In this document: piece after piece, positions 482 to 15,251 of the stretch
Layout of the letters: every line of letters starts with the position of its first letter
Numbering within the stretch: the stretch's first letter is position 1
Assembly: GCF_035285525.1 (NCBI RefSeq)
Contig: NZ_JAYKGW010000119.1
Coordinates: 1-32,000, forward strand
From: Okeania sp.
GTDB taxonomy: Bacteria; Cyanobacteriota; Cyanobacteriia; Cyanobacteriales; Microcoleaceae
Direction: 5' to 3'
Length of the DNA stretch: 32,000 bases
Made by a program: the position numbers and the translations under genes
The notes under the pieces: model-generated
Seen by the model: the letters and a program-made list of their open reading frames with translations, nothing else
Database searches by the model: none
What the model was told of the DNA's origin: nothing

Positions 482-534
482 AAATTTCTGCTGCGGATTA
501 ATTATCAATTATTATATTAATTATCAATAGCTAT

Positions 535-1444: not shown

Positions 1445-4400
1445 ATGGGTGTCACCACTTTTGCGAGAGGAAATCAACTTCTTCAAGAAGGAAAATTAGA
1501 AGAGGCCATTGCTGCTTATCAAAAGTCCATAGAAGAAAATCCCCAGTTTATTCACTCTTACCAAAATTTGGCCAAAGTGCTGGAACAGGTGGGACGCATA
1601 GATGAGGCGATCGCTGCCTTACGTCAAGCAGTGGCCATAAATCTTCAAACTCCCTTACTTTTATATAACTTGGGGAGACTGTTCAAGAGACAAGGCCAGT
1701 TTCAGGAAGCCGTAGATTATTTCCGGCAAGCGATCGCTCTCAAACAAGATGTACCGGATTTTTATTTGGGTTTGGCCAGTGTTTTAGTGAAATTGGGACA
1801 ATGGTCTGAGGTAGAGGACTGTCTTAATCAGATGACTGTAGGGAAGTTGGATGCAACATCCCTACCCCCTACTCCCTACTCCCTACTCCCTACTCCCCAT
1901 TTACCAGATATTTATTTTTATTTGGCAGAAGCTAAGTCTGGACAACAGCAATGGTCTGAGGCAGTGGAGTATTATCAGCGGAGTTGGGATATTGATTCCG
2001 GTAGGGTAGATTGTGGTATTGGTTTGGCCAAAGCTTTGGGTAAGTTGGGGCGATGGTCAGAAGCGGTAGAATTATATCGTGAGATAGTGTATTTGTCAAA
2101 TAGTTCTGGTGAAGTATTGTGTAGTTTGGGTCAGGCATTGGCACAGTTGGGTAGATGGTCAGAGGCAGTTGGTGAATATCGAAAAGCTATTGATTTGGGT
2201 TGTGCGGGAGCTGAGGTGAGGCATCATTTGGGGTATGCTCATACGCAGTTGGGTAGATGGGAAGAGGCGGTGGTTGAGTATCGGTTGGTGCGGGAAGTTA
2301 ATCCCAAGTCTGCGGTGGTGAGGCATCAGTTGGGGTATGCTTTGATGCGATTAGAACGTTGGCGGGAAGCGGAGATTGAGTTGCGGATATCGGCAGAGTT
2401 GTATCCTGGGTCTGCTGTGGTTTGGCAGCAGTTGGGAGACGTTTTGAGGGAGTTGGGGGAGAAGGAAAAGGCAGTTGAGGCTTATCAGCAGGCGATCGCC
2501 TGTAACCATGATTTTTATCAAGCTCACCACAATTTGGGAGAGAACTTGGAAGAGTTGGAACGTTGGGAAGAGGCGATCGCTGCTTATCAGCGCTCAGTGG
2601 AGTTGAAGCCGCAAGCAGCATCTCACCAGAAATTAAGTCGAGTCTTGCGAAAAGTTGGACGGGTTGAGGAGGCGGAAAATTCAGAAAATCAGGCTGTAAC
2701 AATTGAGTCGAAATTGGCTGAGCTTACACAAAATGGGCATGGCATAAATGAGAACGTTTCAACGACGACTAATCAAACTACTCATAGTTCTCTTACACTC
2801 GATCCATCAGGTTCTCTAAAGCTTAATACATCAGAGTCTGAAAATATTTTAGTATCAATCATTATTCCAGTATATGAGCATCATTTATTCACTATTAATA
2901 CCATTTTGAGTATTGTCGATCACACTGATTTAACTAATGTAGAATTAATCATTGCTGATGATGCTTCCCCTACTCCAGTAGAGAAAGTTTTGGCGGATCT
3001 TGATGGTTTAAAAATATTAAGGAATAAAAATAACTTGGGATTTCTTAAAAATAGCAATGAGGGGATGAAAGCAGCAAAAGGAGATTATTTAGTTATCCTC
3101 AATAATGATATTAAGGTAACTGCTGGATGGTTGCCAGCTTTATTAGATGTTTTTTTATCTCACAATGATGCAGGTTTAGTAGGTGCAAAGTTAGTTTATC
3201 CAGATGGAACACTACAAGAAGCAGGTAGTATAGTTTGGCGCGATGGCTCTGCTTGGAACTGGGGAAGAGGAAAAGATGCGCTCATACCTCATTTTAATTA
3301 TGTGAGAAAAGTCGATTATTGTTCAGGAGCGTGTTTGATGATCCGCCGGCAAGATTGGTTGTTCCTGAATGGATTTGATGATGCTTTTAGCCCTGGTTAC
3401 TATGAGGATACTGATTTAGCTTTTCGAGTTAGAAGTATGGGAAAACACGTTTACTATCAACCTCACTCTGTAATAGTTCATTATGAAGGTATTTCTCATG
3501 GTAAGGATGTAAACGCTGGCATCAAAAAACATCAAATTATCAACAAAAAGCGTTTTTATTCTCGATGGCAGGAAACCTTAAAAACGCACCAAGCAAATGG
3601 TATTGAACCTTTTAGAGAAGTAGATCGTTATGTTAGTGCCAGAGTTTTATTTATTGAAGCAGAAATGATTACCCCCGATAAAGACTCTGGGTCATTTCGC
3701 ACTGAGAAAATGTTGAACATACTTGTTAATCTGAATTGTAAAGTTGTATTCGTACCAGATAACCTTTTAGGTAATCAACCTTACTTGTCAAAACTTCAGG
3801 CTGGTGGTATAGAAGTTTTACACACACCTTTTGTTACTAGCATTGAAGAATATATCAAATTAAATGGGGATTTGTTTGATGTTGTATTTTTATGTAGGCA
3901 TTATATAGCAATCAAATATATAGATCATATACGAAAGTATGCTCCCAAGGCAAAAATAATTTTCGATACAGTTGACTTGCACTATTTGAGGGAAGAGCGT
4001 CATGCAAAATTAGAGAAATCAAACGATCTTATGAAAAAGGCAAGAATTACTCGAGACCAAGAGTTGAAAGTAATCCAAGGAGCAGACATGACATTAGTGG
4101 TGAGTCCGGTTGAAAAAAATGAGTTGAAAAAAATGATTCCAGATGCTAGGGTAGATATTTTATCAAATATCCATGACGTTTGTGGTGAAAATCCCCCAGA
4201 CTTCTATGCAATGCGAGATATCTTATTTGTGGGTGGGTTTAGTCATCCACCAAATGTTGATGGGATTACTTGGTTTATTCAAGAAATTTTTCCATCGTTG
4301 CAAGCTCAAATTCCAGATATTAATTTGGATGTAGTGGGAAGTAATATGCCAGAAAAACTAAAAAAGATTAGTCAACCTGGGATAAATATGCATGGTTTTG

Positions 4401-4741
4401 TTGAAGATTTAAAACCTTTTTTCAACCAAGCTAAGATTGTAATTGCTCCCTTGAGATATGGTGCAGGTGTCAAGGGTAAGGTTAATCAAGCTCAGAGTTG
4501 GGGAATTCCAGTTGTGGGAACTTCCGTAGCTATTGAAGGTATGTATCTTAGTGATGAAGTCGATGTACTAATAGCTGATGAACCAGAAACTTTTGTTCGA
4601 CAAATAGTTAGATTATATAACAATTCAGAACTGTGGAAATTAATTTCTGAAGGAGGACGAAAGAACGTTCAACAGCATTTCTCCCGTGCTAAAGCACAGG
4701 AAACATTGAAAGAAATTATTTTTGATAAAATAGACAAATAA
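1445..4741 (+). CDS. TPR-repeat / family-2 glycosyltransferase / GT-B (GT4-like) glycosyltransferase fusion protein (1098 aa)
   Basis: The first ~400 aa are 34-aa TPR units (..LGRWSEAV.EYR.AI..). The central GT-A/GT2 part has VSIIIPVY, ADDASP, ILNNDI and YEDTDLAFR. The C-terminal ~350 aa resemble GT-B retaining transferases (GGFSHPPNVDGI, APLRYGAGVKGKVNQA, GIPVVGTSVAIEGMYLSDEVDVLIADEPE, an E-x7-E-like region). Confidence 0.8.
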   Translation: MGVTTFARGNQLLQEGKLEEAIAAYQKSIEENPQFIHSYQNLAKVLEQVGRIDEAIAALRQAVAINLQTPLLLYNLGRLFKRQGQFQEAVDYFRQAIALKQDVPDFYLGLASVLVKLGQWSEVEDCLNQMTVGKLDATSLPPTPYSLLPTPHLPDIYFYLAEAKSGQQQWSEAVEYYQRSWDIDSGRVDCGIGLAKALGKLGRWSEAVELYREIVYLSNSSGEVLCSLGQALAQLGRWSEAVGEYRKAIDLGCAGAEVRHHLGYAHTQLGRWEEAVVEYRLVREVNPKSAVVRHQLGYALMRLERWREAEIELRISAELYPGSAVVWQQLGDVLRELGEKEKAVEAYQQAIACNHDFYQAHHNLGENLEELERWEEAIAAYQRSVELKPQAASHQKLSRVLRKVGRVEEAENSENQAVTIESKLAELTQNGHGINENVSTTTNQTTHSSLTLDPSGSLKLNTSESENILVSIIIPVYEHHLFTINTILSIVDHTDLTNVELIIADDASPTPVEKVLADLDGLKILRNKNNLGFLKNSNEGMKAAKGDYLVILNNDIKVTAGWLPALLDVFLSHNDAGLVGAKLVYPDGTLQEAGSIVWRDGSAWNWGRGKDALIPHFNYVRKVDYCSGACLMIRRQDWLFLNGFDDAFSPGYYEDTDLAFRVRSMGKHVYYQPHSVIVHYEGISHGKDVNAGIKKHQIINKKRFYSRWQETLKTHQANGIEPFREVDRYVSARVLFIEAEMITPDKDSGSFRTEKMLNILVNLNCKVVFVPDNLLGNQPYLSKLQAGGIEVLHTPFVTSIEEYIKLNGDLFDVVFLCRHYIAIKYIDHIRKYAPKAKIIFDTVDLHYLREERHAKLEKSNDLMKKARITRDQELKVIQGADMTLVVSPVEKNELKKMIPDARVDILSNIHDVCGENPPDFYAMRDILFVGGFSHPPNVDGITWFIQEIFPSLQAQIPDINLDVVGSNMPEKLKKISQPGINMHGFVEDLKPFFNQAKIVIAPLRYGAGVKGKVNQAQSWGIPVVGTSVAIEGMYLSDEVDVLIADEPETFVRQIVRLYNNSELWKLISEGGRKNVQQHFSRAKAQETLKEIIFDKIDK
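1838..1865. repeat. 28-nt palindromic element copy inside the TPR-GT coding sequence (in frame)
   Basis: GTAGGGAAGTTGGATGCAACATCCCTAC, with 12 of 14 arm positions pairing. It starts on a codon boundary and is translated VGKLDATSL. Confidence 0.8.
1860..1898. repeat. STRR heptamer array (CCCTACC, CCCTACT x4, partial) inside the TPR-GT coding sequence
   Basis: Directly visible. It is translated ..PPTPYSLLPTPH.. between two TPR units. This orientation has no stop codon in any frame. Confidence 0.9.
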
Positions 4742-4800
4742 ATGTTATCCAAATTTATTAAAAATATATCAATTAAAATCTATAAATTCTTTGGCAAAGT

Positions 4801-5565
4801 ATGGAAAGGAAAATTTTGATTCACCATCATATATTTAAAAATGCTGGTACATCCTTGCAATATGCACTCAAAAAGTTTTTTGGAGAATCTTATTACGAAT
4901 GTGAACTACCACAAAGTCAAATGGTTACAAAAGATGATTTAGAAAAATTCATCTTAAATAATCCTAGTGCTTTGGCTATATCTGGTCATCATATATGTCT
5001 GCCTACCCCTCAAGGTCAACAATATCAAACTTTTTCTATTATATTATTAAGGAATCCTTTAGCAAGGGTGGAATCAATTTATAAGTTTGAGAAAAGACAA
5101 AAAGCTCAAACTCAAGGTGCAATTAAAGCTAAAGAACTAAATTTTCAGGAGTATGTAAAATGGAGATTAAATCAGACTCCGACAATGTTTTGTAATTATC
5201 AAACTTATTATTGTTCAAGACAGAATAAAAGTGAAGGGAGTAAAATTCCTAAAGATAGGGATTTAAAACTAGCAATTGAAAATCTTCAGTCTAGTGCTGT
5301 AGTAGGAATAGTTGAGAGGTACAAAGAAACTTTGGAACTGGCTAACCAAGTATTAAGTGAAAATTTCCCTGGTATACATTTAGAATATACTTATTTGAAT
5401 GCAACATCTGCTCAAAATAGCATAAAAGAAGAAACTCAAATAAAAAACAAGCTCGAAGCAGATTTGGGTAGTGAAATTGTCAAGCAATTGGAAGAGGGAA
5501 ATGCACTTGATAAAAAATTATGGAAAGTAGCCGATAAAATGATAACCGATAAATTGAAAAAATAA
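4801..5565 (+). CDS. sulfotransferase-family protein (254 aa)
   Basis: N-terminal IHHHIFKNAGTSL resembles the PAPS 5'-phosphosulfate loop (HIPKTGGTS type). LLRNPLARVESIY resembles the 3'-phosphate-binding R.P..R..S motif. It lies 59 bp after the previous gene on the same strand. Confidence 0.6.
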   Translation: MERKILIHHHIFKNAGTSLQYALKKFFGESYYECELPQSQMVTKDDLEKFILNNPSALAISGHHICLPTPQGQQYQTFSIILLRNPLARVESIYKFEKRQKAQTQGAIKAKELNFQEYVKWRLNQTPTMFCNYQTYYCSRQNKSEGSKIPKDRDLKLAIENLQSSAVVGIVERYKETLELANQVLSENFPGIHLEYTYLNATSAQNSIKEETQIKNKLEADLGSEIVKQLEEGNALDKKLWKVADKMITDKLKK

Positions 5566-5588
5566 TTAGAAGCATTACCGTCAAGCAA

Positions 5589-7463
5589 ATGAAAGCACAA
5601 AATCAAAATGCAATTGAAACGACTTCTCATACAGCAAAGTATCACTATGAACAAGGTGAAAGTTTGGCTAAGATTGGACAGTTTAGAGAAGCAGAAATCC
5701 ATTACCAAAAAGCGATTGAGTTGAATAGCAAGTGGTTTAAACCTTATTACAGCTTGGGTGTTGTTCTAGACAAACAAGGAAAAATAGAAGAATCCTGCAC
5801 TTTTTACGAACGCTCTCTTGAAATTAATCCTAATTTTGCTTGGTCTTACTTTCATTTGGGAAACCTATATCGTCAGAAAAGACTCCTTGAAAAAGCTTCT
5901 GAGTCCTTTAAAAAGGCGATTGAAGTTCACCCGCCAGAAAAAAGCTATTGGTTTCATCTCGCATTGGGCGATCTTCTAATTGAACAAGGTGAGTATAATT
6001 TAGCGATTCAAAGTTATACTCAGGGAACTAAAATCGATCCTAAAAAAACACAAGGACAGTTCAAATTGGCCTTGGCACTAACCAAACAACAGGATTGGCA
6101 GGGTGCGATAGCGCTATTTCGTCAAGTGATTCATACTCAACCAAATTTTCACCAGGCTTATGTGGAACTGGGAGATGCTTTATGTCAGATTGACAAAGAG
6201 GAGCTAGCGATTCCTATATATCAAAAAGCTATGGAACTGAAACCAAATGATGCCAAGTCTTATCAGAGATTACAACAGTGTTTGGTGCGACGTTCGGGAG
6301 TAGAATATCCAGAACTACAAAATTGTTATTCAATCTTACAACAGGAAACGAACAAAGTTGACGTTTATTTTGAGGTTGCCAAAGTATTTGTCAAACGAGG
6401 TTTAATTGAAGAGGCTGTTAAAGTTTACTTGAAAATTTTGGCCATTCAGCCTACTTTCACTTCTGTATATGAAAATCTAAAGCACGCAACCCTTTATCTC
6501 AAAAATTTGGATGGTTTAGTTACGGCTTATCGGAAAGTTATTCAAGAGCATCCCAATTTGTTACCAGCTTGTATTGGTATGGGAAATGTATTGACAGAAC
6601 AAGGCCGGACTCAGGAGGCTTCAGATTTCTATCAAAAAGCAGTTTATCAAAAGTGTCTTGCCAAAGCACCTGAATTTGTTCATAAATATTGGGATGATAA
6701 GCAACAACGTCGCCCTCACTTTATTATTATTGGTGCTGAAAAGTGTGGGACAACTTCCTTACATAATTACATTATTCAGCATCCATGGGTTTTGGAGCCA
6801 GTGGAAAAGGAGATTCATTTTTTCACTCAAAAGTTTGATAAGGGTTTTGCTTGGTATGAGGCTCACTTTCCGCCTATTTCTCAAGAGTCTGACTATATTA
6901 CTGGAGAAGCAAGTACATCTTATATTGGTTGCCATAATAATGCACCGGAGCGACTATTTAATTTGTACCCTAATGTCAAATTGATAGCTGTGTTGAGATA
7001 TCCAGTAGATCGGGCAATTTCTCATTACAATCAGTTGGTTAAGTTGGGGCGGGAAGGTCGTTCTTTGGAGGAGGTAGTAACGGCAGAGATAGAAGTGCTA
7101 GAAGGGGTTGAAGATATTTGGTCAGTGCGTCAGCAGTATTGGAGTGTAGGGAAAGGGTGTATTTGGCATGGTTTGTATGTTTATTTTCTTAAGCGATGGA
7201 TGAGCGTGTTTCCCAAAGAGCAGCTTTTGATTCTCAAGAGTGAGGATTTGTTTGAGCAACCTGGGGAGATTATGAAGCAGGTGTTTGAGTTTTTGGAACT
7301 GCCAGATTATCAGCTTTCTAGTTATCCACAATACAATTCAGGAGGAACTTATAAACGTCCAGAAAAGTTAATAATTTACAAGAAAATGGCAGCTTTTTTT
7401 CACATCTTTAATCAGAAATTAGAAAATGTCTTGAGAGTTAAGGTGTGTTCAAACCAAGATTAA
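5589..7463 (+). CDS. TPR-repeat / sulfotransferase fusion protein (624 aa)
   Basis: The N-terminal ~370 aa are TPR units (AEIHYQKAIELN, CTFYERSLEINPNFAWSY...). The C-terminal domain has PHFIIIGAEKCGTTSL (5'-PSB loop) and AVLRYPVDRAISHY (3'-PB motif), as in Sulfotransfer_1-type enzymes. Confidence 0.75.
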   Translation: MKAQNQNAIETTSHTAKYHYEQGESLAKIGQFREAEIHYQKAIELNSKWFKPYYSLGVVLDKQGKIEESCTFYERSLEINPNFAWSYFHLGNLYRQKRLLEKASESFKKAIEVHPPEKSYWFHLALGDLLIEQGEYNLAIQSYTQGTKIDPKKTQGQFKLALALTKQQDWQGAIALFRQVIHTQPNFHQAYVELGDALCQIDKEELAIPIYQKAMELKPNDAKSYQRLQQCLVRRSGVEYPELQNCYSILQQETNKVDVYFEVAKVFVKRGLIEEAVKVYLKILAIQPTFTSVYENLKHATLYLKNLDGLVTAYRKVIQEHPNLLPACIGMGNVLTEQGRTQEASDFYQKAVYQKCLAKAPEFVHKYWDDKQQRRPHFIIIGAEKCGTTSLHNYIIQHPWVLEPVEKEIHFFTQKFDKGFAWYEAHFPPISQESDYITGEASTSYIGCHNNAPERLFNLYPNVKLIAVLRYPVDRAISHYNQLVKLGREGRSLEEVVTAEIEVLEGVEDIWSVRQQYWSVGKGCIWHGLYVYFLKRWMSVFPKEQLLILKSEDLFEQPGEIMKQVFEFLELPDYQLSSYPQYNSGGTYKRPEKLIIYKKMAAFFHIFNQKLENVLRVKVCSNQD

Positions 7464-7520
7464 TTTGAATAAAACTAACTTAATTTTAACAGTTTCAAAT
7501 AACTAAAAAGGAGAATAAAA

Positions 7521-8306
7521 ATGACATCCGATAAATCAACGAAACTTAAAGCAGAAGTAGACAGTACCACTATACCTAGTCAATACCCACACGCTTTAAA
7601 TCTTACTACAAATTATACTAAAGCCGTTTTAACAGAACTACTAAAACAATATGAGCCATGGGGCCATAGAATAGAATTTTCAAATGGTCTGACTACAGCA
7701 GATTTTAAGCGTAGAGTACCTTTTTCTGATAATCCTATGAGTAAAATTATGTTGATCGATCAGAAAATTTGTTTAGATAGGATAAAAGGTGGTAAAGTTC
7801 TGGATGTTGGCTGTAATTCAGGATACAATTCAATATATTGTGCCACGAAATATTCTATGCGGGTAGTTGGTATTGATGTTAACCCAAGACATATCGAAGT
7901 ATCTAAACTCTTAAGCGAGATTGCAAATATTGATGCTGAGTATTTATTAGGGAGTGCAGAAACATTCTGTCGCTCTGAAGAATTTGACCTTATATTACAT
8001 TTAGGAACCCTATATCATCTTCCAAATCCATTACTGTCTCTTCAGACTAGCTATACCAATCTTAAGCCTGGTGGTTATTTAGCCTTAGAAACACAATGTT
8101 ATGACGATCCTTCTGATGAAAATCACTGCTATTTCATGCACATGCATAATAACGATCCAACTAACTTTTGGGCTTTAAGCAGTAAAGTTTTACAAGATTA
8201 TATCAGAATTCTAGGTTTTGTTGATTGTGAGTTAATTAAGAGGGTTGTTCCCAAAACCCTTGAAAATCAGTATATGAGTCGGGTTGTTTTAGTTGCAAAA
8301 AAATAA
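7521..8306 (+). CDS. class I SAM-dependent methyltransferase (261 aa)
   Basis: Motif I is VLDVGCNSGYNS, followed by an acidic residue after beta-2 (VVGIDVN) and DLILHLGTLYHL. A good Shine-Dalgarno sequence AAGGAG lies at 7509-7514. Confidence 0.75.
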   Translation: MTSDKSTKLKAEVDSTTIPSQYPHALNLTTNYTKAVLTELLKQYEPWGHRIEFSNGLTTADFKRRVPFSDNPMSKIMLIDQKICLDRIKGGKVLDVGCNSGYNSIYCATKYSMRVVGIDVNPRHIEVSKLLSEIANIDAEYLLGSAETFCRSEEFDLILHLGTLYHLPNPLLSLQTSYTNLKPGGYLALETQCYDDPSDENHCYFMHMHNNDPTNFWALSSKVLQDYIRILGFVDCELIKRVVPKTLENQYMSRVVLVAKK

Positions 8307-8468
8307 TGTCTAGCTATTTCAGTATAAAGTCAAAATCAAAGAACTTGTGTTATTTTTATTTTAAAAATTTAGGTTTTGATAAAAACTTTTAAGGGTAGTA
8401 ATATATTGTCATCTTTTACTCATATTGATATTTTCTATACAAAGCTCCTAAAATAGGAAGCAAACATA

Positions 8469-10850
8469 ATGCAGATAAACGAAGAATCTCAAAAAACGAA
8501 TGCTGAAGAGTATTTGCAGGCTGCTAATCAATTAAAGCAAGAAGGTAAGTTAGACAGAGCAATTAATGTTTATTGTCTAGCTGGAGATGCTTTTATTCAG
8601 GCAAATCAAATATCATATGCAATTAGTGCTTATAAAAGAGTTCTTGTAATTAACCCTAATTATGCTCGAATTTACATGAAAGTTGCCTATAGTTACTATT
8701 TAAAAAAACAAGTAAACCTAGCAATTAAAAACTATATAGCAGCTCTTCATCTCGACCCAGGTTTAGTTCCTGCTTTAAACCAGCTAGCGAATATTTATAG
8801 AAGTAATAAAAGAGTCAAACAAGGTGTTTTTAAGTTTCAAAGGCTAGTCGAACAACAACCTAATAATGGTGCTTTTCAGGCAATTCTAGGTACTTTTATG
8901 AAAGAGGTAGGGAACGATAAAGAAGCAATATTAGCATATCAGCAAGCAATTAGTAATCAACCAAATTTACCAGTTTACAATTCTTTGACAAGTATTCTTA
9001 AACAGAGTAATCAAATGAATGAAGCTACTGTAGCTTATCAAAAATTAGTTGAAACTCAACCAAAAAATGGCCTAGCCTATGTGGAGTTAGCAGAGTGCTT
9101 TAATCAACAGGGTAATATAAAGAGTGCAGTTAATATTTGTCAGCAATTTATTGACTCAAACTTTTTTGATAATAATAAGCAAAAAATAAATGTTGAACTA
9201 TCGAATTTGAATCAACTAGAAAAGCTTATAATAACAATAGCAACAACCAAGATTGAAAACCTTTTATTCATAAATATAATGCGATTTGTGTTATCTTTGA
9301 AGGAAAATAAAGCTTTTTCCTGGGATTTAAGGTTGTTTATTGCTGAAGAAATTGTGCAAGACGATGGAATACTTTTTGACAAAAAGTTTTGTTTGCTAGC
9401 TGTGCTTTCTTGTTTTAATTCGGTTCTGGAAAATGCTTTTAAGTGTTGGTTGCAAGATTTTAGTAAGCATTCTTCTATAGATCAAAATATTGTTGTATTT
9501 GCAGCATTAAATCCATCGAATTTTTTGTCAGTTCGTCGCCTAGAATTTAAAAATATTCTCTCGCCAAAAATTCGCCAGTTTTTAGTAGAAAATATAAACA
9601 ATGATATTACTAAAAAGCTAACATATATATTTAATAATGACCTAAATACTGAAAGCTATAAAATTTTGAATAGTCAAAACAGTGAGTTTAATAACTTTCT
9701 TTTTGTTTTTTCTTTTTTAGACTTTTATAAAACTTCATCTCATTTGAAAACAGTTATAGATTATGCTTATTTTTTAACGAAAGAAATGCCTTTTTCCAAA
9801 GTTAACATTTTGGTTACTGATGAATTTTCATTTAGTAATTGCATGATTGACTCACCTAAGCGTATCTTGAAAGACAAAGACCGCACTCAGTTTTATGAAA
9901 TTTTACACAGCTTTTATCAAGATGCTTCTAAAGATAGAATTAAATTTATTATTCCAGAAGTAGCTTTATCACCTAGTAGTTTAGGTTCAGATTATACACT
10001 TCATATTCTCAGGAAGCTAATTTCTTGTATGCCAGACATAGTTATTTTTTTTGGAGGAGTTTTTGGCTCTCTAATTTTACCAGAGGTTGTTTACAAATAC
10101 TATCCAACAATTTATGCACAGTTTAATACAGGAAATAATACAAAACATAGTTTTGATATATATATATCATGTAATCCTAGAGAGGTCAGTAATCAATTTG
10201 CCAATAGAATTAATTCGGATCGGTGGAGGTTTCACGAATACATTTATGCACCTTTTCCTTCTGAAGATAAGCATAGTATGGAAATGGTAAAGTCATCACC
10301 TGAATCTATTACAGTTGTTACAGTTGGTTTCAATTTGAATGGCAGAATAAGCGATCCTGAATACTTGGATTGTTTAGTTAATCTTTTGGAACTTTATCCT
10401 CAACTAGAATGGTATTTGATTGGGGTAAACAACGAAGAAGAGTTTTTGTCTAGAAATGTTAAGCTTCCATCTCTTTATACTCTTGGCAGACTGAAGTTAG
10501 TAAAATTCGAGGAAGATTTGTTATCATTTTATAGGTTCTGTGACATTTATACTTATCCAGCACATAGTGGAGGAGGGCGAGGGACTTTCCTTGCTGCTAC
10601 CCAAGGACTACCAATTCTTTGCTTTAAAAATAATGATGCAGAAGGTTTTTTACCTACAGAATGTATCTTTAATAATAATGATGATTATTTTTCCTTTCTT
10701 GAGAAGTTAATTAGTAATCCATCTTTAAGAATTTCTCTGGGCAAAAAAAACCAGGAAAGGGTATCTGAAAATAGAACTCAAAAGTCACTAAAGGAGTTTC
10801 TTGGTTTTTGCCAAGAAGCTAGATTAAACTTTATGAAAAGGATAGGTTGA
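8469..10850 (+). CDS. TPR-repeat protein with an unassigned central region and a GT-B/GT41-like C-terminal half (793 aa)
   Basis: The N-terminal ~230 aa are TPR units. The C-terminus ITVVTVGFNLNGRISDPEYLDCLVNLLELYPQLEWYLIG...FCDIYTYPAHSGGGRGTFLAATQGLPILCF follows the pattern of O-GlcNAc-transferase-like (SPINDLY/GT41) C-terminal lobes, as recalled from memory. The region from aa ~240 to ~560 has no motif I recognise. Confidence 0.45.
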   Translation: MQINEESQKTNAEEYLQAANQLKQEGKLDRAINVYCLAGDAFIQANQISYAISAYKRVLVINPNYARIYMKVAYSYYLKKQVNLAIKNYIAALHLDPGLVPALNQLANIYRSNKRVKQGVFKFQRLVEQQPNNGAFQAILGTFMKEVGNDKEAILAYQQAISNQPNLPVYNSLTSILKQSNQMNEATVAYQKLVETQPKNGLAYVELAECFNQQGNIKSAVNICQQFIDSNFFDNNKQKINVELSNLNQLEKLIITIATTKIENLLFINIMRFVLSLKENKAFSWDLRLFIAEEIVQDDGILFDKKFCLLAVLSCFNSVLENAFKCWLQDFSKHSSIDQNIVVFAALNPSNFLSVRRLEFKNILSPKIRQFLVENINNDITKKLTYIFNNDLNTESYKILNSQNSEFNNFLFVFSFLDFYKTSSHLKTVIDYAYFLTKEMPFSKVNILVTDEFSFSNCMIDSPKRILKDKDRTQFYEILHSFYQDASKDRIKFIIPEVALSPSSLGSDYTLHILRKLISCMPDIVIFFGGVFGSLILPEVVYKYYPTIYAQFNTGNNTKHSFDIYISCNPREVSNQFANRINSDRWRFHEYIYAPFPSEDKHSMEMVKSSPESITVVTVGFNLNGRISDPEYLDCLVNLLELYPQLEWYLIGVNNEEEFLSRNVKLPSLYTLGRLKLVKFEEDLLSFYRFCDIYTYPAHSGGGRGTFLAATQGLPILCFKNNDAEGFLPTECIFNNNDDYFSFLEKLISNPSLRISLGKKNQERVSENRTQKSLKEFLGFCQEARLNFMKRIG

Positions 10851-11029
10851 TGTATCTGTTGAGGAAATAAAATTTCAGCAAAATTAACGTTAAATGTTAA
10901 CCTCAAAAAATTCTTGAAATAACAGTTTCAATAATAGAGATATAAAAATAGTTTTGATCCCATTGTTCAGATAATTAAGCAAGTTATTATATTACCAAAA
11001 TTGAAAATTTTTTTCATAAGTAGTTACAA

Positions 11030-12166
11030 ATGTCTAACTTAATTCCCTATAATAAACCTTATATGACTGGCAAAGAGCTATGGTATGTCAGCCAAGCTCA
11101 TCATTCAGGACAACTTGCAGGTGATGGTAAGTTTACTGAACGCTGTCGTTTGTGGCTAGAACAAACCATTGGTTGTAAGAAAGCTTTAATGACACATTCT
11201 TGTACTGCTGCTCTGGAAATGGCGGCCATTCTGCTTAATGCTCAACCTGGTGATGAAGTCATTATGCCATCTTATACCTTTGTTTCTACTGCAAATGCTT
11301 TTGTATTACAAGATTTAGTACCAGTTTTTGTGGATATTAGAGAAGACACCCTCAACCTAGATGAATCTCTAGTCGAAAAAGCCATCACTGACAAAACTCG
11401 CGCTATTGTCCCTGTACACTATGCTGGTATTGGCTGCGAAATGGATGCTTTAGTTAAAATTGCCAGCGCTCATAATCTAATGTTGATAGAAGATGCTGCT
11501 CAAGGAATTTTTTCTTCTTACCAAGGGAAGCCTCTAGGTAGTTTTGGTGGATTGGCAACCCTCAGTTTTCATGAGACAAAAAATGTTATTTCTGGTGAAG
11601 GTGGGGCTTTACTGATTAATGATGAAAGATTAATTGAACGTGCTGAAATTATTAGGGAAAAAGGAACAAATCGCAGTAAGTTCTTTCGAGGTCAAGTCGA
11701 TAAATACACTTGGGTAGATGTTGGCTCTTCCTATTTATGTGGCGAACTTATCTGTGCATTTTTGTACGCACAGTTAGAGGAGTCGAAAAAAATTACAGAA
11801 GAACGCCTGAAGATATGGAAAACTTACCATTCTGCATTTGAGTCTCTAGAATCAGAAGGAAAGTTGAGGCGTCCAACTGTTCCCAATAATTGCTCTAATA
11901 ATGGCCATATTTATTACCTGATTCTTAATTCTCTTGAAGAAAGAACAAAATTCATCAAGTTCTTATCTGAGCGCAATATCAAAGCTGTTTTTCATTATGT
12001 GCCACTCCATAACTCACCTGCGGGAAAGAAGTATACTAGAACTTATGGCAATTTGTCTAAGACTGAGCATCTTTCTGAGTGTCTGGTTAGGTTACCGATG
12101 TGGATGGGGCTAGAGTCTCAACCTGTAATCGAAGCCGTGTATAATTTTTTTGAAAAAAATGTCTGA
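11030..12166 (+). CDS. wecE: dTDP-4-keto-6-deoxyhexose 4-aminotransferase, WecE/RffA type (DegT/DnrJ/EryC1 family)
   Basis: It is nearly collinear with E. coli WecE as I recall it: IPYNKPYMTGKELWYV, GDGKFTERCRLWLEQ, GDEVIMPSYTFVSTANAF, VPVHYAG, SFHETKN (PLP lysine), AEIIREKGTNRSKFFRGQVDKYTWVDVGSSYL, VFHYVPLH. Confidence 0.9.
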   Translation: MSNLIPYNKPYMTGKELWYVSQAHHSGQLAGDGKFTERCRLWLEQTIGCKKALMTHSCTAALEMAAILLNAQPGDEVIMPSYTFVSTANAFVLQDLVPVFVDIREDTLNLDESLVEKAITDKTRAIVPVHYAGIGCEMDALVKIASAHNLMLIEDAAQGIFSSYQGKPLGSFGGLATLSFHETKNVISGEGGALLINDERLIERAEIIREKGTNRSKFFRGQVDKYTWVDVGSSYLCGELICAFLYAQLEESKKITEERLKIWKTYHSAFESLESEGKLRRPTVPNNCSNNGHIYYLILNSLEERTKFIKFLSERNIKAVFHYVPLHNSPAGKKYTRTYGNLSKTEHLSECLVRLPMWMGLESQPVIEAVYNFFEKNV

Positions 12167-12217
12167 GTTTAAGAACAAAGGCAATAAAACTTCTAGCTGT
12201 TTAAGGAGAGTATATTA

Positions 12218-12787
12218 ATGGCTTTTATCCCGCAAGCACAACTGGCCAATTTGGGGTTTAAAAAACTTGGTAAAAATGTTCTAATTAGCGATAAAGCTTC
12301 AATTTACAATTGCGACCAAATTGAGATTGGAGATAATTCGCGTATAGATGATTTTTGTGTTGTGTCAGGAAAGGTAAGTATTGGTCGCAATGTTCATATT
12401 GCTGTTTTCTGCAATGTAGCAGGTGGTACGGAAGGTATTGTGTTAGAAGATTTTTCTGGTCTTGCCTACGGTTGTCATGTCTTTACTCAAAGCGATGATT
12501 ATAGTGGTAGAACTTTAACTAACCCTACTGTACCGACGAAATTTAAAAATGAAGCAAAAAAGTCTGTGCGCGTTGGTCGCCATGCTATTGTAGGTACTAG
12601 CTCCCTCATTTTTCCCGGTGTTACTTTAGCAGAGGGAACTTCAGTTGGCGCCATCTCTTTGGTAACTAAATCTACTCAACCTTGGTCAATTTATTTTGGC
12701 ATTCCAGCTAAACGAATAAAAGCCCGTAGCCAAGATCTTTTAGAGTTAGAAAAGCAATATTTAGCAGAAGAAAATCAAGATAATTGA
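12218..12787 (+). CDS. left-handed beta-helix (hexapeptide-repeat) sugar acetyltransferase (189 aa)
   Basis: Hexapeptide periodicity is visible (IGDNSRIDDFCVVSGKVSIGRNVHIAVFCNV, VGRHAIVGTSSLIFPGVTLAEGTSVGAISLV). It sits directly after the aminotransferase, which is the expected position for the N-acetylating step of a 4-amino-4,6-dideoxyhexose. Confidence 0.75.
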   Translation: MAFIPQAQLANLGFKKLGKNVLISDKASIYNCDQIEIGDNSRIDDFCVVSGKVSIGRNVHIAVFCNVAGGTEGIVLEDFSGLAYGCHVFTQSDDYSGRTLTNPTVPTKFKNEAKKSVRVGRHAIVGTSSLIFPGVTLAEGTSVGAISLVTKSTQPWSIYFGIPAKRIKARSQDLLELEKQYLAEENQDN

Positions 12788-12829
12788 TTTTGGCTTTCAA
12801 CTACACATTTTTCAGATTTAGAGTTTTTT

Positions 12830-14614
12830 TTAAGAAATCAAAATACTTCTTACTGCTAAAGCGAGAGGTCTTTGATCTATATTTTCCGAACTTTGGCTAG
12901 AATAATCAGGCATATCAAAGACAAAATTGAACTTGGTTTCCCCTGATATTAAATCAAGAGGAAGTTTAAGTTTTTTAGTCAGGAAATCATTTCCAGAAAA
13001 AAGTAATTCCCCAAGTTTTTTGTCGTTTAATTTGACATTTATAACAGTTTCGGTGTTATTATCTGGCAATTTAGCCTTTGCATTGATACTTAAAGTTAAT
13101 TTTCGTTCTACCTGATTTTTTAAACTTAAACTTAACTTAGCTTGTGGCCTTAACGCCCAACAACCCCATTCTTCAGGGTAAGACCAACCTGAAACCAAAT
13201 AAGGTTTTGCATTACCGCCCTTTGCTAAGTTTAATTCATTACCGATGTTGTATATGGATAGTCTTTTATTGTGGAGTAAAGAATCAGGATTTAATAAATC
13301 ATCATTTCTATCTAAATAGAAAGAATCTAAAAAAATATCTTTAATATTATTAAAATTATTTGAGCATATTGCAATAAAGTAAACTGGTTCATAGAGAGGT
13401 AAAAATTGCTTTGAAATCAACTGACTATCACCTGAATAACAATTCAAATTTTTAAGATTAGATTCATCTAGTGAGTATAGAAAAGAGCTAATAGCCATTC
13501 TTTGTCCATAAATTTTAGTATGACTAAAATATTTATTCAGTAATTCAGTAAATTCCTCCTGATACAATTCTTTTATATGAAAAGGATTACAATAATTAGG
13601 CAAATCTGAATAAACGAAACGGTTTGGGGAAGAAATAATTAATACTCCATCATTTTTCAGAACTCTCTTAATTTCTGTCATCATTTCTTCATGTTTATCA
13701 TGATGCTCTATTGTCTCAAATGAAACAACAATATCTATAGATTCACTAGGTAAAGGAATTGAATCACATCCACCAACTAAAAACTTTAAATTAGATTTAT
13801 CTTGATACTTTTTTTTTGCAAATTCTATAGATGATATATCAATATCAACACCAACTACGGAACTTGCCGTTTGGGACAACATAGCTGAACCGTAACCTTC
13901 TCCAGAGGCTATATCTAAAACAGACTTGCCACGCACTATTTCTAGACACAACCCATACCTATGTAAATGTTCGTAGCTAATTTGACCTTGAATATTAGGC
14001 ACATATCTTTCCCCGGTAAATTCCATCTCAGGACTATCTTTGAGAGGTGAAATGATGTGACTCGCTTTTTGATTTTGACTTGGTAGTTGTGGATTGAGAG
14101 CGATCGCTTTCTCGTAGTATTCTCTAGCTACAGATAACTTGTCTTGTTTCGACAAAACTTGGCTTAAATTATAATAACCCCAACAAGAATCAGGTTTTAA
14201 TTCTATTGCTTTCTGGAAAAAGTCAATAGCTTCATCATATTTTTCTTTTCCAATCAAAGCTAAACCAAGACTGTTATAATACTTATGGAAATCTGGCTGA
14301 ATTTTTACTGCACGTTCCAAATAATTAATAGCTTCATCAAATAACTTTTGTTTAACTAAAACTTCTCCCAGGTAAGCTTGGGAAACTACAGAATCTGGCT
14401 TCAGTTCAAGAGCTTTTTTTAACTCTAAGGTAGCTTCATCAAGTAACCCTTTTTTCACTAAAGCATCCCCTAGATTTTGATGCAAGATGAATGAATTAGG
14501 ATTTAGCTTTATAGCATTGCGGTAGTTAGCGATCGCCTCATCCAACCTCCCTTGTCTCTTCAACTTATTAGCCTGCTTCAACAACTGGCCAGCACTCATA
14601 CTCTGATTACCCAT
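12830..14614 (-). CDS. TPR-repeat / class I SAM methyltransferase / C-terminal beta-rich domain protein (594 aa)
   Basis: The N-terminal ~180 aa are TPR units. Motif I is VLDIASGEGYGS, followed by DIVVSFETIEH and GVLIISSPN. The C-terminal ~160 aa carry GWSYPEEWGCW, a motif type I recall from polysaccharide-biosynthesis proteins (domain unnamed). The gene is convergent with the acetyltransferase. Confidence 0.75.
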   Translation of the reverse strand: MGNQSMSAGQLLKQANKLKRQGRLDEAIANYRNAIKLNPNSFILHQNLGDALVKKGLLDEATLELKKALELKPDSVVSQAYLGEVLVKQKLFDEAINYLERAVKIQPDFHKYYNSLGLALIGKEKYDEAIDFFQKAIELKPDSCWGYYNLSQVLSKQDKLSVAREYYEKAIALNPQLPSQNQKASHIISPLKDSPEMEFTGERYVPNIQGQISYEHLHRYGLCLEIVRGKSVLDIASGEGYGSAMLSQTASSVVGVDIDISSIEFAKKKYQDKSNLKFLVGGCDSIPLPSESIDIVVSFETIEHHDKHEEMMTEIKRVLKNDGVLIISSPNRFVYSDLPNYCNPFHIKELYQEEFTELLNKYFSHTKIYGQRMAISSFLYSLDESNLKNLNCYSGDSQLISKQFLPLYEPVYFIAICSNNFNNIKDIFLDSFYLDRNDDLLNPDSLLHNKRLSIYNIGNELNLAKGGNAKPYLVSGWSYPEEWGCWALRPQAKLSLSLKNQVERKLTLSINAKAKLPDNNTETVINVKLNDKKLGELLFSGNDFLTKKLKLPLDLISGETKFNFVFDMPDYSSQSSENIDQRPLALAVRSILIS

Positions 14615-14870: not shown

Positions 14871-15226
14871 TATTATGTAGGCTTAGAAACCCGGTTTCTA
14901 GATAGTTCTTAGTCGATTGTATTTTTGAAGGAGGACTATGCTTTAGCAAAGTTGGAAAACTGGCTAGTTAATAATGGATAATTGATAATGAAATAGTTTT
15001 TTAAAGCGCTTTTAAAATTGATTAAACCCATTGCCATAACCAAAATTTTGTAGAGACTTTTTCAGCTAAGAAATGAAACGCATTTTTGTTATACAACGTC
15101 CCTACTATGGTCTATAGTTCAGGAAAACTGCTGTAAATTTCAGGAAAAGTTAATTGGAGAGAAGAATAGACAAATTAGTTTAACTAGAAATAAATATATA
15201 TTCTTTCCAAATTTTTCCTAACCTTT

Positions 15227-15251
15227 CTGCCTTCTGCCTCCTGCCTTCTGC
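15227..15251. repeat. STRR heptamer array (CTGCCTT/CTGCCTC x3.5)
   Basis: Directly visible, just 3' of the yajQ-like gene. Confidence 0.85.

What the first reader, a model, noticed from the sequence alone, without database searches (positions are those of the whole stretch)
1445..14614. Glycan-tailoring island in which half the enzymes are fused to TPR arrays (GT2-GT4, sulfotransferase, methyltransferase, GT41-like), with an amino-sugar branch but no priming or export genes in view
Seen in the sequence:
- Eight consecutive genes, seven co-directional with 23-179 bp gaps and one convergent.
- Four of them carry N-terminal TPR arrays of ~180-400 aa fused to different catalytic modules: GT-A+GT-B, a sulfotransferase with GAEKCGTTS / RYPVDRAISHY loops, a GT41-like lobe, and a SAM methyltransferase.
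- Also present are a second sulfotransferase, a second methyltransferase, a WecE-type 4-aminotransferase and a hexapeptide acetyltransferase.

Established knowledge:
- WecE plus an acetyltransferase yields a dTDP-4-acetamido-4,6-dideoxyhexose donor.
- TPR-glycosyltransferase fusions of the OGT/SPINDLY type use the TPR superhelix to select protein acceptors.
- Sulfated extracellular polysaccharides exist in cyanobacteria.

Inference: the product should be a sulfated, methylated glycan containing an N-acetyl-amino-deoxyhexose. The recurrent TPR fusion suggests either a TPR-scaffolded multi-enzyme assembly or enzymes directed at a protein or polymer acceptor, rather than a classical Wzx/Wzy or ABC O-antigen pathway. 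No initiating phosphoglycosyltransferase, flippase, polymerase, ABC transporter or rmlA/rmlB gene lies within the 32 kb. I know of no characterised system with this combination.
Basis: partly seen in the sequence, partly recalled or inferred. Interest (0 to 1): 0.72.

Follow-up and report, generated by a model that had tools for sequence, protein, structure and literature searches.

The report
TPR-fused sulfated glycan biosynthesis island
Eight neighbouring genes in the marine cyanobacterium Okeania encode soluble enzymes, half of them fused to TPR repeat arrays, that most likely build, cap, methylate and sulfate a deoxy-sugar surface glycan; the gene set is real and recurs in a few cyanobacteria, but it looks like a variant of the known ABC-transporter-type polysaccharide pathway, not a new kind of system.

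Summary
Eight ORFs lie at the stated coordinates, and domain searches confirm nearly every call. Corrections:
- The organism is Okeania (Oscillatoriales), not Nostocales.
- The "acetyltransferase" is about 50% identical to AntD, a dTDP-4-amino-4,6-dideoxyhexose N-acyltransferase.
- The "GT41-like lobe" is a divergent GT-B domain with no Pfam family. Its best fold matches are GT41 enzymes, but its sequence profile leans towards GT4.

The genes are functionally coupled.
- The core recurs in Trichodesmium and in one further assembly.
- TPR-GT2-GT4 genes with sulfotransferases, and often methyltransferases, recur in three Pleurocapsales-type or unclassified MAGs.
- In other phyla the same catalytic domains are covalently fused: sulfotransferase or methyltransferase to GT2-GT4, and sulfotransferase or AntD-type acyltransferase to the g5-type GT-B.

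The GT2-GT4 family, with its partner methyltransferase, sits next to Wzm/Wzt exporters in about nine loci outside the cyanobacteria. EPS genes are typically scattered in cyanobacterial genomes.

Best reading: cytoplasmic assembly and tailoring genes for a sulfated, methylated deoxyhexose glycan exported by unlinked machinery, with the TPR arrays acting as scaffolds. A protein acceptor is not excluded. I rate it a new variant of a known kind, of moderate interest.

The parts
1445..4741 (+). g1: TPR array (aa 1-~430) + GT2 (GT-A, aa 471-682) + GT4-like GT-B (C-lobe aa 925-1060); 1098 aa, soluble
   Evidence: Pfam. The catalytic module has more than 5,400 homologues at about 50% identity. Full-length TPR-GT2-GT4 relatives occur in six other cyanobacterial loci.
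4801..5565 (+). g2: stand-alone Sulfotransfer_2-type sulfotransferase (254 aa)
   Evidence: Pfam 26.5 bits against a cut-off of 22. PAPS-loop motifs are present. Orthologues are in L001 (410 bits) and L004 (266 bits; TPR-fused there). The domain is fused to the GT2-GT4 core in L074 and L075, and to a g5-type GT-B in P0136.
5589..7463 (+). g3: TPR array (aa ~16-315) + Sulfotransfer_1 domain (aa ~372-600)
   Evidence: Pfam. PDB 3rnl E 3e-24 and heparan sulfate 3-OST/NDST E 1e-21 to 1e-15. A TPR-sulfotransferase homologue lies in Waterburya locus L050 (169 bits).
7521..8306 (+). g4: class I SAM-dependent methyltransferase (261 aa), Methyltransf_9/CmoB-like fold
   Evidence: Pfam and NCBIfam. No orthologue was seen in the syntenic loci.
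8469..10850 (+). g5: TPR array (aa 1-231) + helical linker (aa ~245-400) + divergent GT-B glycosyltransferase (aa ~405-793)
   Evidence: The C-terminal 553 aa have no Pfam hit. AlphaFold model pLDDT 84.6. The 19 best Foldseek hits are GT41 enzymes (SPY, HMW1C, OGT), followed by GT4. There are 475 remote relatives, with weak GT4-type Pfam hits. The domain is fused to an AntD-type acyltransferase in P0147 and to a sulfotransferase in P0136 and P0142.
11030..12166 (+). g6: WecE-type dTDP-4-keto-6-deoxyglucose 4-aminotransferase
   Evidence: NF008687 593 bits (cut-off 375) and TIGR02379 576 bits. PDB 4piw E 4e-140. Conserved in L001 and L004.
12218..12787 (+). g7: AntD-like left-handed beta-helix N-acyltransferase for dTDP-4-amino-4,6-dideoxyhexose
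   Evidence: PDB 3vbk/3vbn (AntD of B. cereus): E 3e-52, about 50% identity, no gaps, full length. That 3vbn is AntD comes from PMC6031040.
12830..14614 (-). g8: TPR array (aa 8-186) + Methyltransf_11 domain (aa 226-341) + C-terminal DUF7024-like beta domain (aa ~475-592); convergent with g7
   Evidence: Pfam. The methyltransferase part is fused N-terminally to the GT2-GT4 core in L080, L085, L086, L087 and P0009. It is an adjacent gene in L007, L008 and L037.

Best explanation
The island encodes the cytoplasmic assembly and tailoring enzymes of a surface glycan (sheath/EPS, capsule or O-antigen-like). The glycan is built on the inner face of the membrane and exported by machinery encoded elsewhere, most likely an ABC transporter of the Wzm/Wzt or KpsMT type.

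Proposed steps:
1. Unlinked RmlA/RmlB supply dTDP-4-keto-6-deoxyglucose (inferred).
2. g6 (WecE) aminates C4 and g7 (AntD-like) N-acylates it (strong homology).
3. g1 extends the chain with its inverting GT2 site and retaining GT4 site. This suits alternate addition of two sugars, probably including rhamnose (inferred from the rmlCDAB genes next to the Waterburya homologue).
4. g5 adds the N-acyl-amino-deoxyhexose (inferred from a fusion of a g5-type GT with an AntD-type domain elsewhere).
5. g2 and g3 O-sulfate sugars using PAPS.
6. g4 and g8 O-methylate. g8 is the cognate, possibly chain-terminating, methyltransferase of the g1 family.

The four TPR arrays hold the soluble enzymes together as a non-covalent complex. 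They replace the covalent enzyme-enzyme fusions seen in other phyla.
For: Shown:
- All catalytic domains are confirmed.
- All eight proteins lack a signal peptide and TM helices.
- Synteny: g1, g2, g5, g6 and g7 are conserved in a Trichodesmium MAG (L001). g1, g2, g5, g6 and a Sulfotransfer_1 gene are conserved in GCA_965191275.1 (L004).
- TPR-GT2-GT4 genes with sulfotransferases, and in several loci methyltransferases, recur in Waterburya, Pleurocapsa and another cyanobacterial MAG. They come with different sugar-nucleotide genes: rmlCDAB, or kpsF/kdsB/kdsA.
- Fusions: g2-type sulfotransferase with GT2-GT4 (L074, L075). g8-type methyltransferase with GT2-GT4 (L080, L085, L086, L087, P0009), or as a neighbour (L007, L008, L037). 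g5-type GT-B with sulfotransferase (P0136, P0142) and with a g7-type acyltransferase (P0147).
- Wzm/Wzt lie beside the g1-family gene in L048, L064, L069, L084, L086, L087, L088 and L089, and Wzt alone in L065. In L089 the Wzt carries a Wzt_C domain (Pfam). The Wzt of L065, L069, L084, L086 and L087 resembles that C-terminal part (20-56 bits).

Literature:
- EPS genes are scattered in cyanobacterial genomes, and the O-antigen route there is thought to be mainly ABC-dependent (PMC4594306).
- Sulfotransferases sit in partial Wzx/Wzy- or ABC-type clusters in cyanobacteria and are abundant in Trichodesmium (PMC8205485).
Against: - No exporter, priming transferase, ligase or rml gene lies within reach of any of the seven cyanobacterial loci. 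I could not inspect the rest of the genome.
- Many proteobacterial family members are lone genes in housekeeping neighbourhoods, for example next to PBP1B. The family is therefore not tied to Wzm/Wzt.
- The best fold matches of g5 are protein glycosyltransferases.
- The donor sugars, the sulfation and methylation positions, and the scaffold role of the TPRs are all inferred. No TPR-TPR contact was modelled.
- The four TPR arrays are only 21-32% identical to each other.
Confidence: 0.5

Rival explanations
1. This is a cytoplasmic protein O-glycosylation system. The TPR arrays select a protein acceptor, such as a pilin, an S-layer or oscillin-like protein, or another secreted protein. The glycan is built, capped, methylated and sulfated directly on the protein before secretion, as in flagellin or BclA-type glycosylation and in OGT/SPY.
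For: - g5 has the GT41 architecture: a TPR array, a helical linker and a GT-B domain. Its 19 best fold matches are GT41 protein glycosyltransferases.
- All the enzymes are soluble and cytoplasmic.
- No lipid-carrier or export genes occur in any of the seven cyanobacterial loci.
- The aminotransferase, N-acyltransferase, methyltransferase and large-GT content matches the viosamine island of P. syringae flagellin (PMC3927599). The aminotransferase, AntD-type acyltransferase and GT content matches the ant operon of Bacillus BclA (PMC7793302).
- A cyanobacterial TPR-GT (Ogt) is needed for pilin glycosylation (PMC9306852).
Against: - The Pfam GT41 model does not hit g5. Its remote relatives and its profile point to GT4 instead.
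- The TPRs show no continuous asparagine ladder: Asn at position 6 in 5 of 20 repeats by a crude scan.
- No candidate acceptor gene is conserved next to the loci.
- The g1 family with its partner methyltransferase sits in Wzm/Wzt loci elsewhere.
- The nearest relatives of the g3 sulfotransferase domain act on polysaccharides.
Confidence: 0.22
2. The island is a mosaic serving two or more products. For example, the WecE/AntD branch with g5 serves one glycan, and g1 with the sulfotransferases serves another. The genes were brought together by rearrangement and are not one pathway.
For: - Gene content differs between the syntenic loci: g3, g4 and g8 are missing in Trichodesmium, and the accessory genes differ in L004.
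- TnpB elements lie beside the island and inside the Trichodesmium copy.
- g8 is on the opposite strand.
- The intergenic gaps of 162 and 179 bp could hold internal promoters.
Against: - The fusion network links both halves. The g2-type sulfotransferase is fused to g1-type cores and also to g5-type GT-B domains. g7-type is fused to g5-type, and g8-type to g1-type.
- g1, g2, g5 and g6 stay together in three genomes, and g7 in two of them.
Confidence: 0.13
3. The enzymes tailor a small molecule or a cytoplasmic glycan that is never exported. Examples would be a glycosylated natural product or an intracellular polymethylated polysaccharide.
For: - Lone GT2-GT4 plus methyltransferase modules with no exporter are common in proteobacteria.
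- From my own knowledge: Okeania is rich in glycosylated natural products, and mycobacteria make cytoplasmic methylated polysaccharides.
Against: - There is no PKS, NRPS or other scaffold gene in the 32 kb.
- Sulfated intracellular glycans are unknown in bacteria.
- The family is associated with Wzm/Wzt elsewhere.
- The sugar-pathway content varies between loci in the way surface antigens do.
Confidence: 0.05

Closest known systems
ABC-transporter-dependent O-polysaccharide systems with a terminating methyltransferase (E. coli O9a WbdA/WbdD/Wzm-Wzt; Geobacillus S-layer glycan WsaE). The details of these systems are from my own knowledge.
   Same: A multi-domain soluble GT extends the chain in the cytoplasm. 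A partner SAM methyltransferase is fused or adjacent. Close family members (54% identity, P0009) lie directly upstream of ABC2_membrane and ABC_tran+Wzt_C genes. Paenibacillus and Cellulosilyticum loci have Wzm-Wzt-[MT-GT2-GT4] in a row.
   Different: There is no wzm/wzt in the window or in any cyanobacterial locus. The domain pair is GT2+GT4 and is not sequence-related to WbdA; no solved relative is closer than E 3e-11. TPR arrays take the place of coiled coils. Two sulfotransferases are present.
Synechocystis xss cluster for the sulfated exopolysaccharide synechan (PMC8205485)
   Same: It is a cyanobacterial cluster combining two sulfotransferases of different subfamilies with several glycosyltransferases. 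Part of the export machinery (OPX) is encoded elsewhere.
   Different: xss carries Wzx, Wzy, a PCP and a priming GT. This island has none of them. 'TPR' does not occur in that paper's text. xss has no amino-sugar branch and no methyltransferases.
Anthrose (ant operon, BclA) and modified-viosamine (P. syringae flagellin) pathways (PMC7793302, PMC3927599)
   Same: All three combine a 4-aminotransferase acting on dTDP-4-keto-6-deoxyglucose, an N-acyltransferase and a GT. The viosamine island also has a methyltransferase (vioM) and a GT of over 1,100 aa (vioT). g7 is about 50% identical to AntD.
   Different: Those glycans are attached to proteins. They have no sulfotransferases and no reported TPR fusions. 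The aminotransferase here is WecE-type, which is galacto-configured in E. coli. I could not test homology of g1 or g5 to VioT, AntB or Fgt1.
GT41 protein glycosyltransferases (OGT, SPINDLY, HMW1C/NGT; Synechococcus elongatus Ogt)
   Same: In g5 an N-terminal TPR superhelix leads through a helical linker into a GT-B catalytic domain. The best Foldseek matches are SPY, HMW1C, XcOGT and human OGT (E 8e-10 to 6e-8).
   Different: There is no hit to Pfam Glyco_transf_41. TM-scores are only 0.40-0.49. The sequence profile's weak best match is to the GT4 enzyme PimB'. No asparagine ladder was seen.
TagF-like capsule polymerases with TPR domains (e.g. A. pleuropneumoniae serotype 3 capsule multienzyme, PDB 8qoy)
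   Same: A soluble multi-domain capsule polymerase (PDB 8qoy) was a Foldseek hit at rank 48. That such polymerases carry a TPR module serving as an architectural element is from my own knowledge.
   Different: The catalytic chemistry differs (phosphodiester polymers). The TPR is internal, not an N-terminal array. There is no sulfation.

Membership tests
Sulfotransfer_1 (PF00685) carbohydrate sulfotransferases - g3 | Profile match above the gathering score, plus the 5'-PSB (PKxGTT-like) and 3'-PB (RxPxxRxxS) PAPS loops | tested here: met
   66.7 bits against 22. GAEKCGTTS and RYPVDRAIS are present. The nearest PDB entries are 3rnl and heparan sulfate 3-OST/NDST.
Sulfotransfer_2 (PF03567) - g2 | Profile match above the gathering score and PAPS loops | tested here: met
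   26.5 bits against 22, E 8e-6. FKNAGTS and RNPLARVES are present. The match is weak, and there is no PDB relative.
WecE (dTDP-4-amino-4,6-dideoxygalactose transaminase, NF008687) - g6 | Equivalog-level score over the full length | tested here: met
   593 bits against a cut-off of 375, covering aa 5-374. E. coli WecE 4piw E 4e-140. The C4 stereochemistry of the product cannot be tested here.
AntD-type N-acyltransferase (LbH) - g7 | Full-length similarity to AntD; use of a dTDP-4-amino-4,6-dideoxyhexose acceptor; identity of the acyl-CoA | tested here: inconclusive
   Similarity is met: E 3e-52, about 50% identity, aa 2-186 against 20-204. Acceptor and acyl-donor specificity cannot be tested with these tools.
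GT41 (OGT/SPY/HMW1C) - g5 | Match to the Pfam Glyco_transf_41 model | tested here: not met
   No GT41 hit at E<=0.01. Remote relatives give weak Glyco_trans_1_4 or Glycos_transf_1 hits. The profile's best PDB hit is PimB', a GT4 enzyme, at E 0.04.
GT41 (OGT/SPY/HMW1C) - g5 | Architecture and fold: a TPR superhelix continuous with a GT-B catalytic domain | tested here: met
   The model has pLDDT 84.6 and pTM 0.85. Foldseek ranks 1-19 are all GT41 entries, aligned over 544-655 columns, but TMq is only 0.39-0.49.
GT41 (OGT/SPY/HMW1C) - g5 and other TPR arrays | Asparagine ladder lining the TPR lumen for peptide binding (feature recalled from the OGT literature) | tested here: inconclusive
   A crude motif scan found Asn at TPR position 6 in 5 of 20 detected repeats, and in none of those in g5 or g3. 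No structural check was made.
GT2 + GT4 bifunctional transferase family ('O-antigen biosynthesis protein' in JGI naming) - g1 | Contiguous GT-A and GT-B domains homologous over the whole about 650-aa module | tested here: met
   5,468 proteins at E<=1e-10. The best are 48-54% identical over 95-99% of the module. 372 confirmed genome loci.
ABC-transporter-dependent (Wzm/Wzt) glycan pathway | wzm/wzt (or kpsMT) genes, a priming transferase and a ligase serving the locus | tested here: not met
   They are absent from the 32-kb window and from the six other cyanobacterial loci. The rest of the genome cannot be searched with these tools. Family members elsewhere are adjacent to Wzm/Wzt.
ABC-transporter-dependent (Wzm/Wzt) glycan pathway | Cytoplasmic polymerising GT with a chain-modifying or terminating methyltransferase partner | tested here: inconclusive
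   The g8-type methyltransferase is fused or adjacent to the g1-family core in 9 loci or proteins. Polymerising and terminating activities were not tested.
Wzx/Wzy-type sulfated EPS cluster (xss-like) | Wzx flippase, Wzy polymerase and PCP in the cluster | tested here: not met
   No such domains occur in any window ORF of 100 aa or more.

The most novel reading that the evidence does not exclude
The island is a cytoplasmic, TPR-guided protein glycosylation system. It assembles a rhamnose-type chain capped with an N-acyl-4-amino-4,6-dideoxyhexose directly on a secreted cyanobacterial protein, then methylates and sulfates it. That would be a sulfated bacterial glycoprotein made by an OGT-like logic, with four different enzyme classes sharing TPR-based substrate targeting.
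Probability: 0.15. Interest if true: 0.8.

Novelty: new variant of a known kind. Interest (0 to 1): 0.5.

Why it matters
- Sulfated polysaccharides are a hallmark of cyanobacteria. According to the paper that described it (PMC8205485), very little was known about their biosynthesis before the Wzx/Wzy-type synechan pathway, and that is the only characterised pathway my searches turned up.
- This locus type occurs in the bloom- and colony-forming marine genera Okeania and Trichodesmium. It would be a second, architecturally different route: soluble multi-domain enzymes, probably ABC-type export, an amino-sugar cap and methylation.
- It gives named candidate genes for the sulfated mucilage or sheath that PMC8205485 suggests may adsorb metal ions such as iron.
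- It defines an uncharacterised GT-B family (g5-type, 475 relatives) that has no Pfam model.
- The fusion pattern gives a testable idea: TPR arrays substitute for covalent enzyme fusions in glycan assembly lines.
- The g1 family is very large (more than 5,000 members), and I found no characterised member. Any biochemical result would therefore transfer widely.

Tried and rejected
- **g5 against PDB by sequence**: nothing, whether as a single sequence or as a profile (only E 0.04 to PimB').
- **First structure model of g5**: built from a 3-sequence alignment, it was unusable in the catalytic part (pLDDT 50). The second model, with 44 remote relatives, worked.
- **Word-indexed homologue search with the g5 profile**: returned only the three known proteins. 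The search was wasted.
- **Scans with the g5 alignment**: the genome contigs and metagenome-contig scans found no loci. A first attempt failed because no column stretch was conserved enough.
- **Reaching sequence upstream of the window**: look-ups of g1 and of the small ORF at 302-508, with two alternative starts, found nothing on record. The genes upstream of g1 therefore remain unseen.
- **Is g1 related to Pseudomonas flagellin glycosyltransferases?** The literature describes FgtA (PA1091) as GT2 plus phosphotransferase (PMC11833859). That is a different architecture, and I had no sequences of Fgt1, Fgt2 or VioT to compare. I kept this as an analogy only.
- **TPR arrays as recent duplicates of one docking module**: rejected. 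They are 21-32% identical to each other.
- **Other scans**: Rfam, tRNA, promoter and terminator scans gave nothing above background.
- **Natural-product tailoring**: rejected as the main reading, because no scaffold genes are present.

Full report
**What is there**

The window is from Okeania sp., a marine filamentous cyanobacterium of the Oscillatoriales (Microcoleaceae). g5 and g1 are 100% identical to NCBI proteins of that genus, on a 56-kb contig. It is not from the Nostocales.

Eight ORFs occupy 1445-14614 exactly as described. Seven are co-directional, with gaps of 23-179 bp. The eighth is convergent, 42 bp from g7.

Pfam and NCBIfam confirm the domain calls:

| Gene | Domains |
|---|---|
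| g1 | TPR + GT2 + GT4-type GT-B |
| g2 | Sulfotransfer_2 (weak, but above the gathering score and with both PAPS loops) |
| g3 | TPR + Sulfotransfer_1 |
| g4 | class I methyltransferase |
| g5 | TPR + 553 aa with no family hit |
| g6 | WecE equivalog |
| g7 | hexapeptide acyltransferase |
| g8 | TPR + methyltransferase + C-terminal DUF7024-like beta domain |

None of the eight has a signal peptide or a transmembrane helix. All chemistry is therefore cytoplasmic, where the NDP-sugars, SAM and PAPS are.

The rest of the window is housekeeping: YajQ, TnpB, MAPEG, a sucCD-like pair, a Na/H exchanger, a CN hydrolase and PsaF. There is also an unrelated PgaC-like membrane GT2. No exporter, priming transferase or rml gene is present.

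**Refinements of the domain calls**

- **g3.** The sulfotransferase domain's nearest solved relatives are all carbohydrate sulfotransferases: 3rnl, heparan sulfate 3-OSTs and NDST. No protein-tyrosine sulfotransferase appears among them.
- **g7.** It is not a generic acetyltransferase. It aligns without gaps at about 50% identity over its full length to AntD, the N-acyltransferase of D-anthrose biosynthesis (identity of the PDB entry from PMC6031040). That AntD acts on dTDP-4-amino-4,6-dideoxyglucose is from my own knowledge. Together with a bona fide WecE, the amino-sugar branch is well supported. The acyl group is uncertain.
- **g5.** The C-terminal part has only three close full-length relatives (Okeania, Trichodesmium, one further assembly). 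It has 475 remote relatives among 1.84 billion representatives. Those relatives give weak GT4-type Pfam hits, never GT41.
  - A model built with 44 remote relatives is confident (pLDDT 84.6). It shows a helical linker followed by a two-lobed GT-B fold.
  - Its 19 best PDB matches are all GT41 protein glycosyltransferases (SPY, HMW1C/NGT, XcOGT, human OGT). TM-scores are modest (0.39-0.49). GT4 enzymes follow and match the catalytic part alone.
  - So 'GT41-like' is right for the architecture and unproven for family membership.

**Are the genes one system?**

Synteny:
- A Trichodesmium MAG keeps g1, g2, g5, g6 and g7 in order. A TnpB is inserted there, and the TPR-sulfotransferase is reduced to a TPR-only ORF.
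- A further assembly keeps g1, g2 (there fused to TPRs), g5, a Sulfotransfer_1 gene and a WecE-like gene. It adds a TPR-GT61 and a WcbI gene.

Four more cyanobacterial loci are anchored by full-length TPR-GT2-GT4 genes and show the same theme with different accessories:

| Locus | Content |
|---|---|
| Waterburya | rmlC, rmlD, rmlA, rmlB, then TPR-GT2-GT4, two GTs, a TPR-sulfotransferase and an FkbM methyltransferase |
| Pleurocapsa | a GT4, a methyltransferase, kpsF/kdsB/kdsA-type Kdo genes and a sulfotransferase |
| Unclassified cyanobacterial MAG | two sulfotransferases and two GT4s |
| Microcoleaceae MAG | TPR-GT2 and a triple methyltransferase |

Domain fusions give the strongest coupling evidence:
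- The g2-type sulfotransferase is fused to the GT2-GT4 core in a Bacteroidia MAG and a gammaproteobacterial MAG.
- The g8-type methyltransferase is fused to the core in Paenibacillus, Cellulosilyticum, two actinobacterial genomes (Saccharomonospora and an Acidimicrobiales MAG) and a metagenomic protein. It is the neighbouring gene in three proteobacterial loci.
- g5-type GT-B domains are fused to a g2-type sulfotransferase plus TPRs (P0136), to another Sulfotransfer_2 domain (P0142), and to a g7/AntD-type acyltransferase (P0147).

These fusions link g1, g2, g5, g7 and g8 into one network. They also suggest that g5 is the transferase for the N-acylated amino sugar.

**Which pathway type?**

The g1 catalytic module belongs to a very large family: more than 5,400 proteins at about 50% identity and 372 confirmed genome loci. 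I found no characterised member.

Its contexts are mixed:
- Many are lone genes or GT-plus-methyltransferase pairs in housekeeping surroundings.
- In about nine of about 80 non-cyanobacterial loci, Wzm and Wzt lie beside it. In L089 the Wzt carries a Wzt_C domain by Pfam, and several other Wzt proteins resemble that C-terminal part.
- These include the third-best hit to g1 (P0009, MT-GT2-GT4, directly upstream of ABC2_membrane and ABC_tran+Wzt_C). They also include Wzm-Wzt-[MT-GT2-GT4] runs in two Firmicutes.

That is the layout of ABC-transporter-dependent O-polysaccharide and S-layer-glycan loci. From my own knowledge, a cytoplasmic multi-domain GT polymerises the chain there, a methyltransferase caps it, and the cap is read by Wzt.

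None of the seven cyanobacterial loci has an exporter. However, cyanobacterial EPS genes are known to be scattered singly or in small clusters, and the O-antigen route in the phylum is thought to be mainly ABC-type (PMC4594306). Maeda et al. also noted that cyanobacterial sulfotransferase genes mostly lie in partial Wzx/Wzy- or ABC-type clusters and are abundant in Trichodesmium (PMC8205485).

The absence of export genes is therefore weak evidence for a non-classical route.

**Role of the TPR arrays**

The four arrays are only 21-32% identical to one another. A crude scan finds no continuous asparagine ladder. TPR number varies between orthologues (793, 889 and 883 aa for g5).

Other phyla join the same catalytic domains covalently. 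Cyanobacteria instead attach each to a TPR array, and P0136 has TPRs between a sulfotransferase and a GT-B domain. The simplest reading is that the TPRs assemble or space the enzymes in a complex.

This is inference. No contact was modelled.

**Most likely mechanism and rivals**

I put 0.5 on a cytoplasmically assembled, exported, sulfated and methylated deoxyhexose glycan. It would carry an N-acyl-4-amino-4,6-dideoxyhexose and be made by a TPR-held enzyme complex, with unlinked export.

Rivals:
- **Protein acceptor (0.22).** It is kept alive by g5's GT41-like architecture, by the close parallel with the anthrose/BclA and modified-viosamine/flagellin gene sets (PMC7793302, PMC3927599), and by the pilin-modifying TPR-GT Ogt in Synechococcus (PMC9306852).
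- **Mosaic island (0.13).**
- **Small-molecule or intracellular product (0.05).**

The two leading readings can also converge. From my own knowledge, S-layer glycans in Firmicutes are built by the ABC route and then transferred to protein.

**Novelty and interest**

The individual enzyme families are known, and sulfotransferase-bearing partial glycan clusters in cyanobacteria have been noted before.

Three things are new here:
- A recurrent locus type with several TPR-fused tailoring enzymes.
- An uncharacterised GT-B family with GT41-like architecture.
- A fusion network that predicts who works with whom.

That makes it a new variant of a known kind. It is of moderate interest, and of higher interest if the acceptor proves to be a protein.

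Noticed in passing
window 15973-17577 (-); L001 2727-3806: There is a TnpB (IS200/IS605-type RNA-guided endonuclease, NF040570 220 bits) just downstream of the island, with no TnpA beside it. A second TnpB sits inside the syntenic Trichodesmium island, where the TPR-sulfotransferase is reduced to a 243-aa TPR-only ORF. This suggests that mobile elements remodel the locus.
   Followed up: partly
window 170-186, 1336-1352, 1426-1442, 23528-23544 (-); 1859-1897; 15225-15251: Short tandem heptamer repeats are present. CTGATAA doublets occur four times in intergenic DNA (0.01 expected); one ends 3 nt before the g1 start codon. TCCCTAC x5.6 lies inside g1 and encodes a proline-rich insert between TPRs. 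TTCTGCC x3.9 lies upstream of the YajQ gene. They resemble cyanobacterial STRR repeats.
   Followed up: partly
window 21992-23512 (+): A membrane GT2 of the processive synthase type lies 7 kb from the island, separated by housekeeping genes. It is PgaC/IcaA-like (114 bits) and XrtP-associated-GT-like (104 bits), both below cut-off. It may belong to a separate synthase-dependent polysaccharide.
   Followed up: partly
L026 7511-11908; L063 and about 20 other Xanthomonadales loci: In Xanthomonadales and Marinicella the g1-family gene is a lone GT4-GT2-GT4 protein of about 1,450-1,650 aa. In the two loci examined with Pfam (L026, L063) it lies next to PBP1B and a 175-aa ORF (a TPR protein in L026), with no other glycan genes nearby. 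I do not know its function.
   Followed up: partly
window 24430-25683 and 26210-27091 (+): A succinyl-CoA ligase beta/alpha-like pair scores well below the NCBIfam equivalog cut-offs (222 vs 370 and 268 vs 336 bits). It may be a divergent acyl-CoA ligase and not SucCD.
   Followed up: no
window 302-508 (-) and 1-1444: The 1.4 kb upstream of g1 is AT-rich (30% GC) and essentially non-coding. It contains a small 59-68-aa ORF of unknown family. No record of it was found in the gene index.
   Followed up: partly
window 12839-13192 (-) (g8 aa ~475-592); L050 14706-15371: A DUF7024-like beta domain ends g8 (E 5e-5). A similar domain appears weakly (E 0.025) in a small gene near the Waterburya TPR-GT2-GT4 gene. 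It might be a glycan-binding module, but I did not test this.
   Followed up: no
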